Shown: in pieces, positions 2,159-15,667 of the stretch | Position numbering within the stretch: position 1 is the stretch's first letter | How the letters are laid out: the number at the start of each line of letters is the position of its first letter | NCBI GenBank assembly: GCA_020849855.1 | Contig: JADZFO010000038.1 | Span: forward strand, 108,010-172,009 | Reading direction: 5' to 3' | Source: a bacterium | Lineage (GTDB): Bacteria > 4484-113 > JAFGCY01 | Length of the DNA stretch: 64,000 nucleotides | The notes under the pieces: model-generated | Seen by the model: the letters and a program-made list of their open reading frames with translations, nothing else | The model's database searches: none | Told to the model about the DNA's origin: nothing | Translations under genes and position numbers: made by a program

Positions 2159-2188
2159 TTAAATCGTCCGCCTGCTGCACCTATAATC
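2159..2188 (+). promoter_or_regulatory. putative sigma70-type promoter of the complex-I-like operon (-35 TTAAAT, 18-nt spacer, -10 TATAAT)
   Basis: TATAAT at 2183-2188 and TTAAAT at 2159-2164, upstream of the nuoA-like start at 2264. AT-rich hexamers stand out in GC-rich DNA. Confidence 0.3.
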
Positions 2189-2263
2189 CATAACCTTAGC
2201 CGTATCAGGGCGTCTTAGAGCTGAGGGGCCCGGCCGCGGGCGGCTGTCGCAGGACCAGAGGGG

Positions 2264-2662
2264 ATGAACACAACAGGCGAATACAACTGGGTGGCGCTGT
2301 TCCTATTTGGCGGCGCCTGTGTGCTGGGGCTGGCCTTCGCCCTGGCCGCCCTGCTGCGCCCCAGCAACCCCGGCCTGTTCAAGCGCCTGACCTTCGAGAG
2401 CGGCGCGCGGGCCCTGGGCGACGCGCTGGTGCGCTTTAACGTGCGCTTCTATATCCTGGCCATCGTCTTCCTGATGTTCGACGTGGACGTGGTCTTCATC
2501 TTCCCCTGGGCCGCGGCCTTCCGCCTGCTGGTCTTTGGCGAGGAGAACCGCCTCTTCACCCCGATGGGCCCGGCCTGCCTGTGGGAGATGTTTGTCTTCA
2601 TCGGCATCCTGATGCTGGGCTGGGCCTATGCCTACCGCAAGGGGGCGCTGGAATGGGTCTAG
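2264..2662 (+). CDS. nuoA: NADH-quinone oxidoreductase subunit A-like (NuoA/Nqo7 family) membrane subunit
   Basis: 132 aa, 3 TM helices, diagnostic NuoA motif FDVDVVFIFPWA and a loop region ERLTFESGARALGDA. Confidence 0.85.
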   Translation: MNTTGEYNWVALFLFGGACVLGLAFALAALLRPSNPGLFKRLTFESGARALGDALVRFNVRFYILAIVFLMFDVDVVFIFPWAAAFRLLVFGEENRLFTPMGPACLWEMFVFIGILMLGWAYAYRKGALEWV

Positions 2663-13711: not shown

Positions 13712-13756
13712 GGCGCCCCGGTGGGCGGCGGCAAGCGAGTTTAGGAGCATTCAGGC

Positions 13757-15667
13757 ATGGAACAGTTTTCAGTTGGGATTTTTGAGAAGCTGCAGAACTT
13801 CCTGATCTGGGCGGCCAACCCGATCTCGCAGCTGCTGCTTTTCCCGCTGCTGGGCTGCCTGCTGATCAGCGGGCTGAAGCCGGGCAACCTGCCGCGCATC
13901 CGTTTCTATGCCGTCCTGTTCAGCGCTTTGACCCTGCTGGTCTCCATCCTGATGGTCACCGGGCTGCCCGAGGGCCTGCGCAAGTCCGCGCCCTTCTTCA
14001 GCCAGTACCTGGCTCTGCAGCCCGACGCCCCGCCGCAGTTCGGCCTGCCCGCCGACCAGTACAAGTGGATCACCATCCAGTACGGTGAGCACCAGAGCCT
14101 CTCAGTGAACTGGAATGTCGGCGTGGACGGCCTGTCGATGCCGCTGATTGTGCTTTCCAGCGCGCTCTTCCTTGGCGCGACCCTCTGGGGCTTGAGCCGC
14201 AAGGAGCAGGCCCGGGAGTTCTATGCCCTGCTGCTGCTGCTGCAGGTGGGCATTGGCGGCGTGTTTGTCTCCCTGGACTTCATCCTTTTCTATCTGTTCT
14301 GGGAGCTGATGCTGCTGCCGATGTACTTCCTGATATCCGGATTCGGGAAGGAACGCGTGGCCGCCCAGCGGGCGGCAATCAAGTTCTTCCTCTTCACCAT
14401 GGGCGGCAGCGTGTTCTTCCTGGTCAGCGCCATCGCCATGAAGGTGCTGAGCAATATCTACAGCTTCGCGATCATCGATATCTGCATGGCGGCCATCGAC
14501 CCGGACAAGATGGGCTACCTGCCCCTGGCCCTGCGCACGATGATGTTCGTCGGCCTGCTGCTGGCCTTCGCGGTCAAGATCCCGATCTTCCCGCTGCATA
14601 CGTGGCTGCCGGACGCGCATACCGAGGCCCCGACGGAGATCTCCGTGATCCTGGCCGGCATCATGCTGAAGACCGGCGCCTATGCCATGCTGCGCATCCT
14701 CTACTTCGCCTTCCCGGATGTGGGCTATGCAGTGGGGCCGATACTGGCCACCTGCGCGGTGATATCCATCGTCTATGGTGCGGCGATAACACTGGCCCAG
14801 ACGGACTTCAAACGCATGGTGGCCTACAGCTCGATCAGCCACATGGGCTTTGTGGTGCTGGGCATCTCGGCAATGAACGTTGACGCCATGGTTGGCGCCA
14901 CCTTCCACATGGTGGGCCACGGCATCATCATCGCCACGCTCTTCTTCCTCAGTGGTGTGCTGGAGCGGCGCTATGGCACCCGCGACCTGCGGCAGATCAG
15001 CGGCATGCTGAAGCTGGCCCCGGCCTACAGCCCCTTCCTGGTGCTGGCGGCGGTGGCCGGCATGGGCTTCCCCTTCCTGGCCGGCTTCTGGGGCGAGCTG
15101 ATGGTGCTGTGGGGCAGCTTCTATAACAACCCCAACTGGGAGAGCGTGCGCGTGGGGCCGCTGGACGGCGCGACATACTTCCAGGTGCTGGCGGTGACTG
15201 CCTGCCTGGGCATCCTGACCAGCGCGGTGTATATGCTGCGCATGCTGGTCCGCGTGCTGGGCGGCCCGGCACCGAGCCTGGCCTCGCAGCAGTATGAAGA
15301 GAAGCTGCCGGCGATGGCGCAGCCGGTGCTGCTGGCCGGCACCGAGCCCAAGAACCCGCAGCAGGCCCTGGCCTGGGCCGGCCTGAGCGGCTCGCCGATG
15401 GCCGCCAGCTTTGAGCTGGAAGCGGCCGATTCGGCAGCTGCGGCGGAGCAGGCCGCGCTGGATTCCGGCGCCGGCACAGCTTCAGTGCCGCTGGACGTGG
15501 AAGATGCCCCGCAGCCAAAGGTCTGGCGCGGCATGCGCCTGAACGAGGCCCTGGTGCTGATTCCGCTGGCCCTGGCGATCATCATCCTGGGCTTGCAGCC
15601 CTCCGGCCTCTTCGCCATGAGCTCATCTCTGGCCGCCAGCATGATGCAGTACTTCCTGGCCTTCTAG
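13757..15667 (+). CDS. nuoM: NuoM/Nqo13-like (MrpD-type antiporter-like) membrane subunit
   Basis: 636 aa. GVDGLSMPLIVLSSALF and FYLFWELMLLPMYFLISGFG...IKFFLFTMGGS match the NuoM motifs (VDGLSL..., FF.FEA.LIPMYFLI..WG...A..KFFLYT). C-terminal ~150 aa is an Ala/Gln-rich extension. Confidence 0.8.
   Translation: MEQFSVGIFEKLQNFLIWAANPISQLLLFPLLGCLLISGLKPGNLPRIRFYAVLFSALTLLVSILMVTGLPEGLRKSAPFFSQYLALQPDAPPQFGLPADQYKWITIQYGEHQSLSVNWNVGVDGLSMPLIVLSSALFLGATLWGLSRKEQAREFYALLLLLQVGIGGVFVSLDFILFYLFWELMLLPMYFLISGFGKERVAAQRAAIKFFLFTMGGSVFFLVSAIAMKVLSNIYSFAIIDICMAAIDPDKMGYLPLALRTMMFVGLLLAFAVKIPIFPLHTWLPDAHTEAPTEISVILAGIMLKTGAYAMLRILYFAFPDVGYAVGPILATCAVISIVYGAAITLAQTDFKRMVAYSSISHMGFVVLGISAMNVDAMVGATFHMVGHGIIIATLFFLSGVLERRYGTRDLRQISGMLKLAPAYSPFLVLAAVAGMGFPFLAGFWGELMVLWGSFYNNPNWESVRVGPLDGATYFQVLAVTACLGILTSAVYMLRMLVRVLGGPAPSLASQQYEEKLPAMAQPVLLAGTEPKNPQQALAWAGLSGSPMAASFELEAADSAAAAEQAALDSGAGTASVPLDVEDAPQPKVWRGMRLNEALVLIPLALAIIILGLQPSGLFAMSSSLAASMMQYFLAF

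What the first reader, a model, noticed from the sequence alone, without database searches (positions are those of the whole stretch)
2159..15667. Complex-I-like operon (NuoA,B,C,D,H,J,K,L,M homologs + 2 unknown membrane proteins) with no NuoE/F/G/I/N and no cofactor ligands: candidate Ehr-type redox-less membrane complex
Thirteen co-oriented genes, many with overlapping stops/starts, encode homologs of nine complex I subunits. No gene for a NuoI-type 2x[4Fe-4S] ferredoxin subunit (no CxxCxxCxxxCP ORF anywhere in the cluster), for the NADH-dehydrogenase module (NuoE/F/G) or for NuoN was found. The NuoB homolog has lost all four cluster-N2 cysteines. The NuoD homolog lacks both the hydrogenase NiFe cysteines and the conserved His of the complex I quinone pocket (GPQHPSLVSPVQL instead of GPQHPAAHGVLRL). 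As read, the complex would contain no Fe-S cluster and probably no functional quinone site, yet keeps the full antiporter-like membrane arm (L, M, H, J, K, A). That is the defining pattern of the poorly understood Ehr (energy-converting hydrogenase related) complexes, but this version is richer in complex-I subunits (A, C, J, K present) and carries two additional unknown membrane proteins (5803..6339, 8939..9958).
Basis: partly seen in the sequence, partly recalled or inferred. Interest (0 to 1): 0.85.

Follow-up and report, generated by a model that had tools for sequence, protein, structure and literature searches.

The report
Complex I that lost its cofactors
An uncultured bacterial lineage (UBP7) keeps a ten-subunit respiratory complex I under purifying selection even though every iron-sulfur ligand and both quinone-binding residues are gone, so it cannot move electrons and probably works as a redox-independent ion translocator.

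Summary
The + strand from 2264 to 15667 carries nuoA-B-C-D, a small membrane gene (X), nuoH, an embedded MNT/HepT toxin-antitoxin pair, gene Y, and nuoJ-K-L-M.

- **Ligand loss.** NuoB has lost all four N2 cysteines (CC to DY, C to G, C to D). NuoD has lost the quinone His (to Val) and Tyr (to Trp).
- **Correction 1.** The "unknown membrane protein" Y (8939-9958) is the NuoI homologue. It is fused to about four N-terminal transmembrane helices and has no cysteine ligands left.
- **Correction 2.** This is not an Ehr complex. Every subunit is closest to true complex I.

The same operon occurs in about 45 lineages of candidate phylum UBP7. All of its genes are under purifying selection, and all ion-channel residues are intact. 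Sister lineages carry the same ten-gene operon with every cofactor ligand present, and one lineage is intermediate.

So this is a redox-dead derivative of a NuoN-less, NuoEFG-less complex I variant. My best guess at its function is a redox-independent ion translocator, but that is inferred, not shown. I found no published description. I could not check whether a second complex I exists elsewhere in the genome.

The parts
2264..2662 (+). nuoA homologue (132 aa). The TM2 acidic pair FDVD is kept. The loop Cys of the YECG motif is Ser (FESG).
   Evidence: Pfam PF00507 at 2.5e-28. 73-94% identical across UBP7 loci. dN/dS 0.12. Sister lineages have YECG.
2883..3428 (+). nuoB homologue (181 aa) without the four N2 cluster cysteines (CC to DY, C to G, C to D).
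   Evidence: Pfam PF01058. Aligned to Nqo6 (2fug_6) and M. smegmatis NuoB. The same replacements occur in all 8 clade loci. dN/dS 0.26.
3418..4377 (+). nuoC homologue (319 aa). It carries an in-frame palindromic repeat insertion and a variable C-terminal tail.
   Evidence: Pfam PF00329 at 6.3e-17. Repeat found. dN/dS 0.33.
3599..3770 (+). Palindromic repeat element inserted in frame in nuoC. A 30-bp unit is repeated 3.9 times and encodes AGQDPPLQNQ repeats.
   Evidence: TRF score 190. The hairpin 18-mer has 17 matches in the window against 0.21 expected. Sequence read.
4374..5606 (+). nuoD homologue (410 aa) lacking the quinone His (to Val) and Tyr (to Trp).
   Evidence: Pfam PF00346 at 1.1e-76 and NCBIfam NuoD at 367.5 bits. 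PDB alignment. The motif is lost in 39 of 39 clade sequences that cover the site. dN/dS 0.13. The former quinone-site segments are more conserved than the protein average.
5281..5385 (+). Second in-frame copy of the palindromic repeat element. It lies in a NuoD loop that varies across the clade.
5803..6339 (+). X, a 178-aa membrane protein of unknown function found only in this sub-lineage.
   Evidence: No Pfam or NCBIfam hit. Present only in the window and L006, at 89% identity. hhalign probability is below 5% against the small membrane proteins at the equivalent place in other loci. dN/dS 0.28.
6500..8314 (+). nuoH homologue (604 aa). It has a 139-aa insertion with four hydrophobic segments (6749-7165) in the loop after TM1, plus a C-terminal extension with one extra helix. 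The TM5-6 loop motif AE.NRPPFDL.EA.NEL is kept.
   Evidence: Pfam PF00146 at 8.9e-97. Clade alignment. Start codon and dN/dS 0.23. Insertion coordinates. Sister lineages have no insertion.
8311..8607 (+). MNT-type nucleotidyltransferase antitoxin. Its start GTG overlaps the nuoH stop (GTGA).
   Evidence: Pfam PF01909 at 9.5e-13. Junction read. GS..RG...DSDLD motif seen. Absent from all related loci.
8604..8942 (+). HepT-type RNase toxin. Its stop overlaps the start of Y.
   Evidence: Pfam PF01934 at 1.9e-24. R....H.Y motif seen.
8939..9958 (+). Y, a NuoI homologue with about four N-terminal TM helices and no Fe-S ligands. Cys motif 1 is deleted and motif 2 is substituted.
9955..10860 (+). nuoJ homologue. 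The ORF is 301 aa; the N-terminal extension varies and the true start is uncertain.
   Evidence: Pfam PF00499 at 8.6e-35. Alignment. dN/dS 0.29.
10974..11483 (+). nuoK homologue (169 aa) with a conserved N-terminal extension and a loop insertion. Both membrane glutamates are kept.
   Evidence: Pfam PF00420 at 4.5e-26. Alignment. dN/dS 0.06.
11477..13711 (+). nuoL homologue (744 aa) with a C-terminal lateral-helix region. TM5 Glu, TM7 Lys, TM8 His, TM11 His/Lys and TM12 Lys-Asp are all kept.
   Evidence: NCBIfam NuoL at 286 bits. PDB alignment. Family alignment.
13757..15667 (+). nuoM homologue (636 aa). TM5 Glu, TM7 Lys, TM8 Lys and TM12 Glu are all kept.
   Evidence: NCBIfam NuoM at 437.5 bits against NuoN at 157.7. 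PDB alignment..

Best explanation
**What it is (shown).** The operon encodes a ten-subunit derivative of respiratory complex I: NuoA, B, C, D, H, a membrane-anchored NuoI, J, K, L and M. It belongs to a small, previously undescribed variant family that lacks NuoN and NuoEFG and whose NuoI carries about four N-terminal transmembrane helices.

In the UBP7 lineage the variant has lost every redox site of the Q-module:
- the four N2 cysteines of NuoB;
- all eight cysteines of NuoI;
- the His and Tyr of NuoD that bind the quinone head group.

The proteins themselves are retained, co-transcribed and under purifying selection. The complex therefore cannot carry electrons from a cytoplasmic donor to quinone.

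**How it most likely works (inferred).** Every charged residue of the ion pathways is intact. These are the NuoH TM5-6 loop, the NuoA and NuoK carboxylates, and the Glu/Lys/His chains of NuoL and NuoM. I therefore propose that it still moves ions across the membrane but as a secondary, redox-independent device. The most likely form is a cation/proton antiporter or a gated proton path comparable to Mrp.

The cofactor-less B-C-D-I cap would keep the conformational-coupling role of the former quinone chamber, acting as a gate, lid or ligand sensor. The strong conservation of that cap argues it is more than packing material.

**Confidence by layer.** About 0.9 that it is a conserved, redox-dead complex I derivative. 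About 0.4 for the specific ion-translocator or antiporter mechanism.
For: **Identity of the subunits.**

**Ligand loss, residue by residue.**
- NuoB and NuoD.

**The loss is fixed, not a sequencing artefact.**
- All 39 clade NuoD sequences that cover the site lack the His and Tyr.
- All 8 NuoB sequences share D-Y, G/S and D at the former cysteine positions.
- The operon is conserved in order in L001, L002, L005-L011.

**Purifying selection.**
- dN/dS against the closest relative is 0.06-0.34 for every gene. The flanking purN control is 0.24.
- NuoD and NuoB are as conserved across the clade as NuoH (57-67% identity).
- The former quinone-site segments of NuoD score 0.86 and 0.94 for conservation, against a protein mean of 0.70.

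**Ion-pathway residues are intact.**

**Evolutionary series.**
- Sister loci L015, L016 and L017 have the same ten-gene operon. In L015 and L016, whose sequences I read, every ligand is present. All 24 TM-anchored NuoI relatives found keep Fer4 domains.
- L012 is intermediate. Its NuoB and NuoD ligands are lost, but its NuoI keeps CP plus CxxCxxC.
- In a NuoD neighbour-joining tree the UBP7 clade has 100% bootstrap support and sits on a long stem.
Against: - No experiment or expression data exist.
- An ion-translocating function is inferred only from residue conservation.
- Canonical complex I has no established second-ion path, so antiport needs an assumption. The one precedent I know is Na+/H+ antiport by deactive mammalian complex I, which I recall from memory (Roberts & Hirst 2012) and did not check here.
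- The very strong conservation of the peripheral arm fits a repurposed active site at least as well as a passive cap.
- I could not search the rest of any UBP7 genome, so the respiratory context is unknown. That includes any other complex I, NDH-2, Mrp, and quinone synthesis.
- NuoN could in principle be encoded elsewhere, although it is absent from the operon in every locus examined.
Confidence: 0.6

Rival explanations
1. Repurposed pocket. The former quinone chamber now binds a different ligand or substrate. The membrane arm would run in reverse, using the proton-motive force to drive a conformational change that does non-redox work there. Alternatively, ligand binding gates ion flow, making the complex a sensor.
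For: - The NuoD segments that replaced the quinone ligands are among the most conserved in the clade: LLSRCEWLAG at 0.94 and GPQHPSL.AP at 0.86, against a mean of 0.70.
- NuoD has the third-lowest dN/dS in the operon, 0.13.
- The coupling loop of NuoH is unchanged.
- UBP7 NuoH gained a 2-4 helix insertion in the loop next to the chamber entrance.
- The residues that replaced the N2 cysteines (D, Y, D) are themselves invariant in UBP7.
Against: - No candidate ligand or partner gene is conserved beside the operon. The flanks differ in every locus.
- The other cofactor-less lineage, L012, uses different replacement residues (S, E, G, S; His to Trp; Tyr to Ile), so no common new site is evident.
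Confidence: 0.2
2. It is still a redox enzyme. Electrons would enter by an unconventional route: a non-cysteine-ligated metal site, a cofactor bound by the NuoI transmembrane domain, or a separately encoded partner.
For: - Asp and Tyr residues replace the N2 cysteines and are invariant in UBP7.
- Two nearly invariant His residues (H127, H173) lie in the transmembrane part of Y.
- Published ideas about Ehr assume an external redox partner (PMC6349859).
Against: - All twelve Fe-S cysteines and both quinone ligands are gone.
- The His residues of Y are not conserved in the cofactor-competent relatives.
- No redox gene is linked to the operon in any of the loci.
- No ferredoxin motif exists anywhere in the 64 kb.
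Confidence: 0.07
3. It is a decaying, non-functional remnant of complex I (pseudogenes in progress).
For: - Repeat elements and a toxin-antitoxin pair have inserted into the operon.
- Accessory small genes vary between genomes.
- Some genomes split the operon between nuoB and nuoC.
Against: - All ten genes are intact in every locus that covers them.
- About 45 lineages that have diverged to 53-64% NuoD identity still keep the NuoD gene.
- dN/dS is 0.06-0.34, the same as a housekeeping neighbour.
- The repeat insertions are in frame and fall in loops that vary anyway.
Confidence: 0.03
4. It is a member of the Ehr (energy-converting hydrogenase related) family.
For: - It shares the idea of a complex-I-like assembly without its catalytic ligands.
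- Ehr function is also unknown.
Against: - All subunits are closest to Nuo families, not to Ech, Mbh or Hyc.
- It has NuoA, J, K and C and the nuo gene order.
- Its closest relatives are cofactor-competent complex I variants.
Confidence: 0.03

Closest known systems
Respiratory complex I without the N-module (11-subunit Nuo/NDH-1/Fpo-type enzymes)
   Same: - Homologues of NuoA, B, C, D, H, I, J, K, L and M in nuo gene order.
- No NuoE, F or G in the operon.
- All ion-channel residues of the membrane arm are conserved.
- The NuoL lateral-helix region is present.
   Different: - No NuoN, so only two antiporter-like subunits.
- NuoI is fused to about four transmembrane helices.
- No N2, N6a or N6b ligands, and no quinone His or Tyr.
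- NuoH has a 139-aa insertion with four hydrophobic segments.
- NuoK and NuoH carry extensions.
Cofactor-competent sister complexes in loci L015, L016 and L017 (for example GCA_900174565.1, GCA_021158185.1 and Planctomycetales bacterium 4484_113); uncharacterised
   Same: - Same ten-gene operon.
- Membrane-anchored NuoI.
- Extended NuoK.
- Same internal deletion in NuoD (the MEALIHHF helix is missing).
- No NuoN or NuoEFG.
   Different: - They keep all twelve Fe-S cysteines, the NuoD His and Tyr, the NuoA loop Cys and the canonical NuoL PLHxWLPDAMEGPTP motif.
- They have no NuoH insertion.
Ehr (Ech/energy-converting-hydrogenase-related) complexes
   Same: - A complex-I-superfamily assembly whose catalytic subunit has lost its metal ligands.
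- The physiological function is unknown.
   Different: - Ehr descends from group-4 [NiFe] hydrogenases with Ech-like gene content.
- This system descends from true complex I, as its NuoD/NuoB affinities, its NuoA/J/K/C content and its nuo gene order show.
Mrp multisubunit cation/proton antiporter
   Same: - NuoL/M-type antiporter-like subunits and a NuoK/MrpC-like subunit.
- No redox chemistry is needed, so it is a plausible functional analogue.
   Different: - Mrp has no NuoH, A, J, B, C, D or I homologues and no peripheral arm.
- No MrpB, E, F or G homologues are present here.

Membership tests
Respiratory complex I (Nuo, NADH:quinone oxidoreductase) | Homologues of membrane core subunits NuoA, H, J, K, L and M | tested here: met
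   Pfam and NCBIfam hits for each.
Respiratory complex I (Nuo, NADH:quinone oxidoreductase) | Third antiporter-like subunit NuoN | tested here: not met
   - Only two PF00361 genes are in the window.
- The M gene scores as NuoM at 437 bits against NuoN at 158.
- NuoN is absent from the operon in all related loci.
- The rest of the genome could not be searched.
Respiratory complex I (Nuo, NADH:quinone oxidoreductase) | Q-module subunits NuoB, C, D and I present | tested here: met
   - NuoB, C and D by Pfam.
Respiratory complex I (Nuo, NADH:quinone oxidoreductase) | Four cysteine ligands of cluster N2 in NuoB | tested here: not met
   The alignment to Nqo6 gives D, Y, G and D at the four positions. 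The same holds in all 8 clade loci.
Respiratory complex I (Nuo, NADH:quinone oxidoreductase) | Two CxxCxxCxxxCP motifs (clusters N6a and N6b) in NuoI | tested here: not met
   No such motif lies within an open reading frame anywhere in the window. In Y, motif 1 is deleted and motif 2 is substituted.
Respiratory complex I (Nuo, NADH:quinone oxidoreductase) | Quinone head-group ligands His38 and Tyr87 (T. thermophilus Nqo4 numbering, from memory) in NuoD | tested here: not met
   His is Val and Tyr is Trp. Both are lost in 39 of 39 clade sequences that cover the site, and I saw no loss in the 75 next-best NuoD relatives; 65 were confirmed outright and the other 10 were pattern-match failures.
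Respiratory complex I (Nuo, NADH:quinone oxidoreductase) | NADH-oxidising N-module (NuoE, F, G) | tested here: not met
   Absent from the operon and from the ORFs scanned across the 64-kb window. Absent from the operon in all related loci. The whole genome could not be tested.
Ehr (energy-converting hydrogenase related complex) | Large and small subunits belong to the group-4 [NiFe] hydrogenase lineage rather than to NuoD and NuoB | tested here: not met
   - NuoD reaches the NCBIfam NuoD equivalog cut-off.
- PDB matches: complex I 49 kDa at 3.5e-75, MbhL at 1e-35, HycE at 1e-24.
- NuoB: complex I at 2e-36, MbhJ at 3e-18.
Ehr (energy-converting hydrogenase related complex) | Ech-like gene content (about six genes, with a HyfE-like subunit and no NuoA or NuoJ) | tested here: not met
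   The operon has NuoA, C, J and K in nuo order. The Ehr composition is taken from PMC7894505.
Ehr (energy-converting hydrogenase related complex) | Ni-Fe cysteine ligands absent from the large subunit | tested here: met
   They are absent, but this is true of every NuoD, so it is uninformative.
Mrp cation/proton antiporter | MrpA/D antiporter-like subunits plus MrpB, C, E, F and G, and no peripheral arm | tested here: not met
   L and M score higher as NuoL and NuoM than as MrpA and MrpD. No MrpB, E, F or G family hits were found. A peripheral arm is present.
Ten-subunit complex I variant with membrane-anchored NuoI (defined here; uncharacterised) | Operon A-B-C-D-H-I(TM)-J-K-L-M, N-terminal transmembrane domain on NuoI with a DPLD motif, extended NuoK, and the NuoD internal deletion | tested here: met
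MNT/HepT type VII toxin-antitoxin (the two embedded genes only) | Adjacent minimal nucleotidyltransferase and HEPN RNase genes with GSxxRG...DxD and Rx4HxY motifs | tested here: met
   Pfam PF01909 and PF01934. Both motifs read.

The most novel reading that the evidence does not exclude
The complex would be a new kind of energy converter. It would keep the conformational coupling machinery of complex I (quinone-chamber loops, E-channel, antiporter modules) but replace redox chemistry with something else. Ion flow down the proton-motive force would drive non-redox work or signalling at the strongly conserved former quinone pocket. Possible new ion or metal sites are the invariant Asp-Tyr-Asp triad at the old N2 position and the DPLD/His motifs of the NuoI transmembrane domain.
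Probability: 0.2. Interest if true: 0.95.

Novelty: new variant of a known kind. Interest (0 to 1): 0.78.

Why it matters
How chemistry in the quinone chamber of complex I is transmitted to distant proton pumps is a long-standing open question. This system offers several things that bear on it.

- **A natural experiment.** Nature has removed the chemistry but kept the chamber, the coupling loops and the pumps, all under selection.
- **A graded series for comparison.** Closely related complexes run from fully cofactor-competent, through one with ligands for a single cluster left, to fully cofactor-less. That series can be used for comparative structure and function work.
- **An independent origin.** It shows that loss of catalytic metal centres with retention of the whole assembly, known so far from hydrogenase-derived Ehr, also happened inside the true complex I lineage.
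- **A practical annotation problem.** NCBI and JGI label this clade's NuoD proteins "NADH-quinone oxidoreductase subunit D". Metabolic reconstructions of UBP7 genomes could therefore wrongly credit them with a working complex I.

Tried and rejected
**Searches that returned nothing or could not be done**
1. Exact-sequence look-up of the window's NuoD returned nothing, even though a 100% identical protein is in the protein database.
3. Literature searches found no description of a cofactor-less complex I derivative or of the ten-subunit variant. I searched for Ehr, UBP7, nuoABCDHIJKLM, complex I superfamily and cysteine-ligand loss. Marreiros et al. 2013 and Coppi 2005 are not in the library, so I took the Ehr definition from papers that cite them.
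4. A whole-genome search for a second complex I was impossible. Contig lengths in the NuoD hit list showed no canonical NuoD on a known UBP7 contig, but only the top 120 hits are listed, so this says little.
5. Rfam and the promoter and terminator scans gave nothing useful.

**Ideas tested and dropped**
6. X as a conserved subunit: rejected. hhalign probability is below 5% against the small proteins at the same place in other loci.
7. Genes inserted between nuoB and nuoC in L007, L008 and L011 as functional partners: rejected. In L008 they include a hybrid histidine kinase on the opposite strand and a TPR-like protein; in L011 a TfoX-like protein. The content differs between genomes.
8. A heme site in the transmembrane domain of Y: not supported. 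The His residues are not conserved in the cofactor-competent relatives.
9. Pseudogene decay: rejected on dN/dS and conservation.

**Technical failure**

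
Full report
**What is in the sequence**

The + strand between 2264 and 15667 holds thirteen co-oriented ORFs, several with overlapping stop and start codons. 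Pfam and NCBIfam identify these genes:

| Gene | Coordinates |
|---|---|
| nuoA | 2264-2662 |
| nuoB | 2883-3428 |
| nuoC | 3418-4377 |
| nuoD | 4374-5606 |
| nuoH | 6500-8314 |
| nuoJ | 9955-10860 |
| nuoK | 10974-11483 |
| nuoL | 11477-13711 |
| nuoM | 13757-15667 |

The M gene is clearly NuoM rather than NuoN (437 against 158 bits). The L gene is NuoL-like and keeps a lateral-helix region.

Two further ORFs have no family hit: X (5803-6339) and Y (8939-9958). The remaining two, 8311-8607 and 8604-8942, are an MNT nucleotidyltransferase and a HepT RNase. This is a toxin-antitoxin pair wedged between nuoH and Y with overlapping codons.

nuoH most likely starts at ATG 6500. The upstream part of the long ORF is heptamer-repeat spacer that contains stop codons in the closest relative.

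**Ligand loss is real**

phmmer alignments to solved structures show NuoB aligned to T. thermophilus Nqo6 with all four N2 cysteines replaced: GLACCAIEM to GLDYATLEI, GACASSGG to GNGAISGA, and VPGCPPRP to VPGDPPRP. In NuoD, GPQHPAAHGVLRL reads GPQHPSLVSPVQL, so the His is Val. DRLDYVS reads SRTEWLA, so the Tyr is Trp.

No C..C..C...C motif lies within an open reading frame in any of the six frames of the 64 kb; the single match spans a stop codon. HMMs built from the operon's own proteins find no paralogue elsewhere in the window. The other window ORFs I scanned that have a family match are housekeeping or non-respiratory genes.

**The "unknown" protein Y is NuoI**

Y has 51 relatives among 5.8 billion protein clusters, all unnamed. 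A profile of 45 of them, searched against 1.84 billion representatives, found only 27 proteins. The more distant hits fall into two groups.

- P0188 lies in an operon A-B-C-D-H-Y-J-K-L-M (L012). Its C-terminal half matches E. coli NuoI (7awt_I, E 3.6e-7) and many TYKY subunits.
- P0180, P0183, P0186, P0189 and P0190 carry intact 4Fe-4S dicluster domains. P0180 and P0186 lie in the same ten-gene operon (L015-L017).

Three further results tie Y to NuoI:
- hhalign between the Y family and 22 of these membrane-anchored NuoI proteins gives probability 99.9% and E 2.3e-32 over 285 columns.
- The alignment shows that UBP7 Y lost the first CxxCxxCxxxCP motif by a deletion of about 20 residues. It lost the second by substitution, RCxFCGLCEDVCP to GRWDFSPALAQLQDDAG.

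Y also occupies the H-I-J position of canonical nuo operons. So ten complex I subunits are encoded here, and the NuoI subunit has no cluster ligands.

**Distribution and selection**

The window's NuoD belongs to a sharply separated clade of about 45 protein clusters at 53-100% identity. The next hits are ordinary NuoD at 40% or less. Loci recovered through Y name the organisms as UBP7 MAGs, including the complete genome CP060262.1.

Gene order A-B-C-D-H-(small membrane gene)-Y-J-K-L-M is conserved in these loci. Some genomes split it between B and C with unrelated genes.

- All 39 clade NuoD sequences that cover the site lack the His and Tyr. I saw no loss in the next 75 NuoD relatives: 65 were confirmed outright and the other 10 were pattern-match failures rather than substitutions.
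- All eight NuoB sequences share D-Y, G/S and D at the old cysteine positions.
- dN/dS against the closest relative (L006) is K 0.06, A 0.12, D 0.13, H 0.23, B 0.26, M 0.27, X 0.28, J 0.29, Y 0.31, C 0.33 and L 0.34. The neighbouring purN is 0.24.
- Within the clade, the NuoD segments that replaced the quinone ligands are more conserved than average: 0.94 and 0.86 against 0.70.

These are not decaying genes.

**Where it came from**

L015, L016 and L017 carry the same ten-gene operon. L015 and L016, whose sequences I read, share the same membrane-anchored NuoI, the same extended NuoK and the same internal NuoD deletion. In them every ligand is present:
- NuoB has MGLACCAIEM, GSCA.SGG and VPGCPPRP.
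- NuoD has GPQHPSTHGVLRL and DR.DYLS.
- NuoI has two full cysteine motifs.

All 24 clusters of such NuoI proteins have Fer4 domains. One is from "Planctomycetales bacterium 4484_113".

L012 is intermediate. Its NuoB ligands are lost (S, E, G, S) and in its NuoD the His is Trp and the Tyr is Ile. Its NuoI still has one CP plus CxxCxxC, enough for one cluster.

In a neighbour-joining NuoD tree, UBP7 is monophyletic (100%) on a long stem. It groups with L012 in 95% of bootstraps, though long-branch attraction cannot be excluded.

Changes that track cofactor loss also appear in other subunits:
- The NuoA loop changes from YECG to YESG or FESG.
- NuoL changes from PLHxWLPDAMEGPTP to PL(S/C)FWL..AMVAP.P.
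- In UBP7 only, NuoH gains a 2-4 helix insertion in the loop after TM1. In the window this is 139 aa at 6749-7165.

**What still looks functional**

All residues that define the ion pathways are kept:
- the two NuoK glutamates;
- the NuoA FDVD pair;
- the NuoH TM5-6 loop (AE.NRPPFDL.EA.NEL) and the RxxxPRxRxDQ motif;
- in NuoM, the TM5 Glu, TM7 Lys, TM8 Lys and TM12 Glu;
- in NuoL, the TM5 Glu, TM7 Lys, TM8 His, TM11 His/Lys and TM12 Lys-Asp.

**Interpretation**

Three things are shown. This is a complex I derivative that cannot bind N2, N6a or N6b and lacks the quinone head-group ligands. It is conserved under selection across a candidate phylum. It arose from a cofactor-competent ten-subunit variant.

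Function is inferred. With intact ion pathways and no electron path, the simplest reading is a redox-independent ion translocator. That would be an Mrp-like cation/proton antiporter or a gated proton path, with the B-C-D-I cap acting as gate or lid. I recall from memory that deactive mammalian complex I was reported to catalyse Na+/H+ antiport (Roberts & Hirst 2012). I did not check that here.

The strong conservation of the former quinone pocket leaves real room for a repurposed ligand site (rival 1). A hidden redox function and gene decay are both unlikely.

**Comparison with known systems**

It is not Ehr. The papers I could read define Ehr as a group-4 hydrogenase relative lacking Ni-Fe ligands, with Ech-like content. 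Here every subunit is nearest to true Nuo families and the nearest relatives are cofactor-competent complex I variants.

It resembles Ehr in outcome, Mrp in probable function, and N-module-less complex I in anatomy. I found no description of it, or of the ten-subunit membrane-anchored-NuoI variant, in the searchable literature.

**Limits**

- I could not search the rest of any UBP7 genome, so the presence of another complex I, NuoN, NDH-2 or Mrp is unknown.
- There are no expression or biochemical data.
- The tree is a simple distance tree.
- Residue numbering of reference enzymes is from memory, although the motifs themselves were aligned here.

Noticed in passing
window 3599-3770 (nuoC), 5281-5385 (nuoD), 24133-24187 (inside the methionyl-tRNA synthetase gene 23770-25941, minus strand): A palindromic, hairpin-forming repeat element is inserted in frame into three protein-coding genes. 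It consists of GTAGGGGCGAGTCTTGACTCGCCC followed by GGCGGGTCAAGACCCGCC.CTACAGAATCA units, and it encodes GASLDSPS...AGQDPPLQNQ peptides. The hairpin 18-mer has 17 matches against 0.21 expected. It recalls the Rickettsia palindromic elements that live inside genes (from memory). The closest relative has fewer units in nuoD.
   Followed up: partly
window 8311-8942: An MNT/HepT toxin-antitoxin pair is embedded inside the operon. Its codons overlap at both ends (GTGA with the nuoH stop, and the HepT stop with the Y start). It is absent from every related locus. In the closest relative (L006) the same position holds a 177-aa membrane protein.
   Followed up: partly
window 2835-2867, 5612-5643, 6343-6376, 47457-47485: Short tandem heptanucleotide repeats sit in intergenic spacers, including three spacers within the operon. 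Units: CAATCAT/CAATCAG, ATGGCTA x4.6, GATTGCG x4.9 and AGTCCTG x4.1. They make spurious long ORF extensions, for example upstream of nuoH.
   Followed up: no
L012 10001-11065 (P0188) and L012 6440-8489: A separate lineage carries an intermediate state. Its NuoB and NuoD ligands are lost, with different replacement residues. Its membrane-anchored NuoI still has one CP plus CxxCxxC, enough for a single 4Fe-4S cluster with no obvious partner in the chain.
   Followed up: partly
L001 12865-13302, L002 5764-6186, L005 13471-13959, L007 9439-10008, L008 9547-10008, L009 9538-10008 (L011 carries an apparently equivalent ORF that was not aligned): A conserved protein of about 150 aa with four predicted transmembrane helices lies between nuoH and the NuoI-like gene in most UBP7 loci. 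It is missing from the window and unrelated to the window's X. Accessory small membrane genes of this complex are evidently exchangeable.
   Followed up: partly
L015 5808-15933, L016 3470-13775, L017 3435-13740: These loci carry a cofactor-competent ten-gene complex I variant, nuoABCDH-I(TM-anchored)-JKLM, with no nuoN or nuoEFG in the operon. It seems undescribed in its own right. It has only two antiporter-like subunits and a NuoI with about four transmembrane helices and a conserved DPLD motif.
   Followed up: partly
window 4374-5606 (P0001) and relatives P0004-P0035: NCBI and JGI name this clade's NuoD proteins 'NADH-quinone oxidoreductase subunit D'. Automatic metabolic reconstructions could therefore credit UBP7 genomes with a working complex I.
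   Followed up: no
L007 1892-6233, L008 825-6059, L011 4153-6224: In one UBP7 sub-lineage the operon is split between nuoB and nuoC by 2-5 kb of unrelated genes. In L008 these include a PAS/His-kinase/receiver hybrid on the opposite strand and a TPR-like protein; in L011 a TfoX-like protein. The content differs between genomes.
   Followed up: partly
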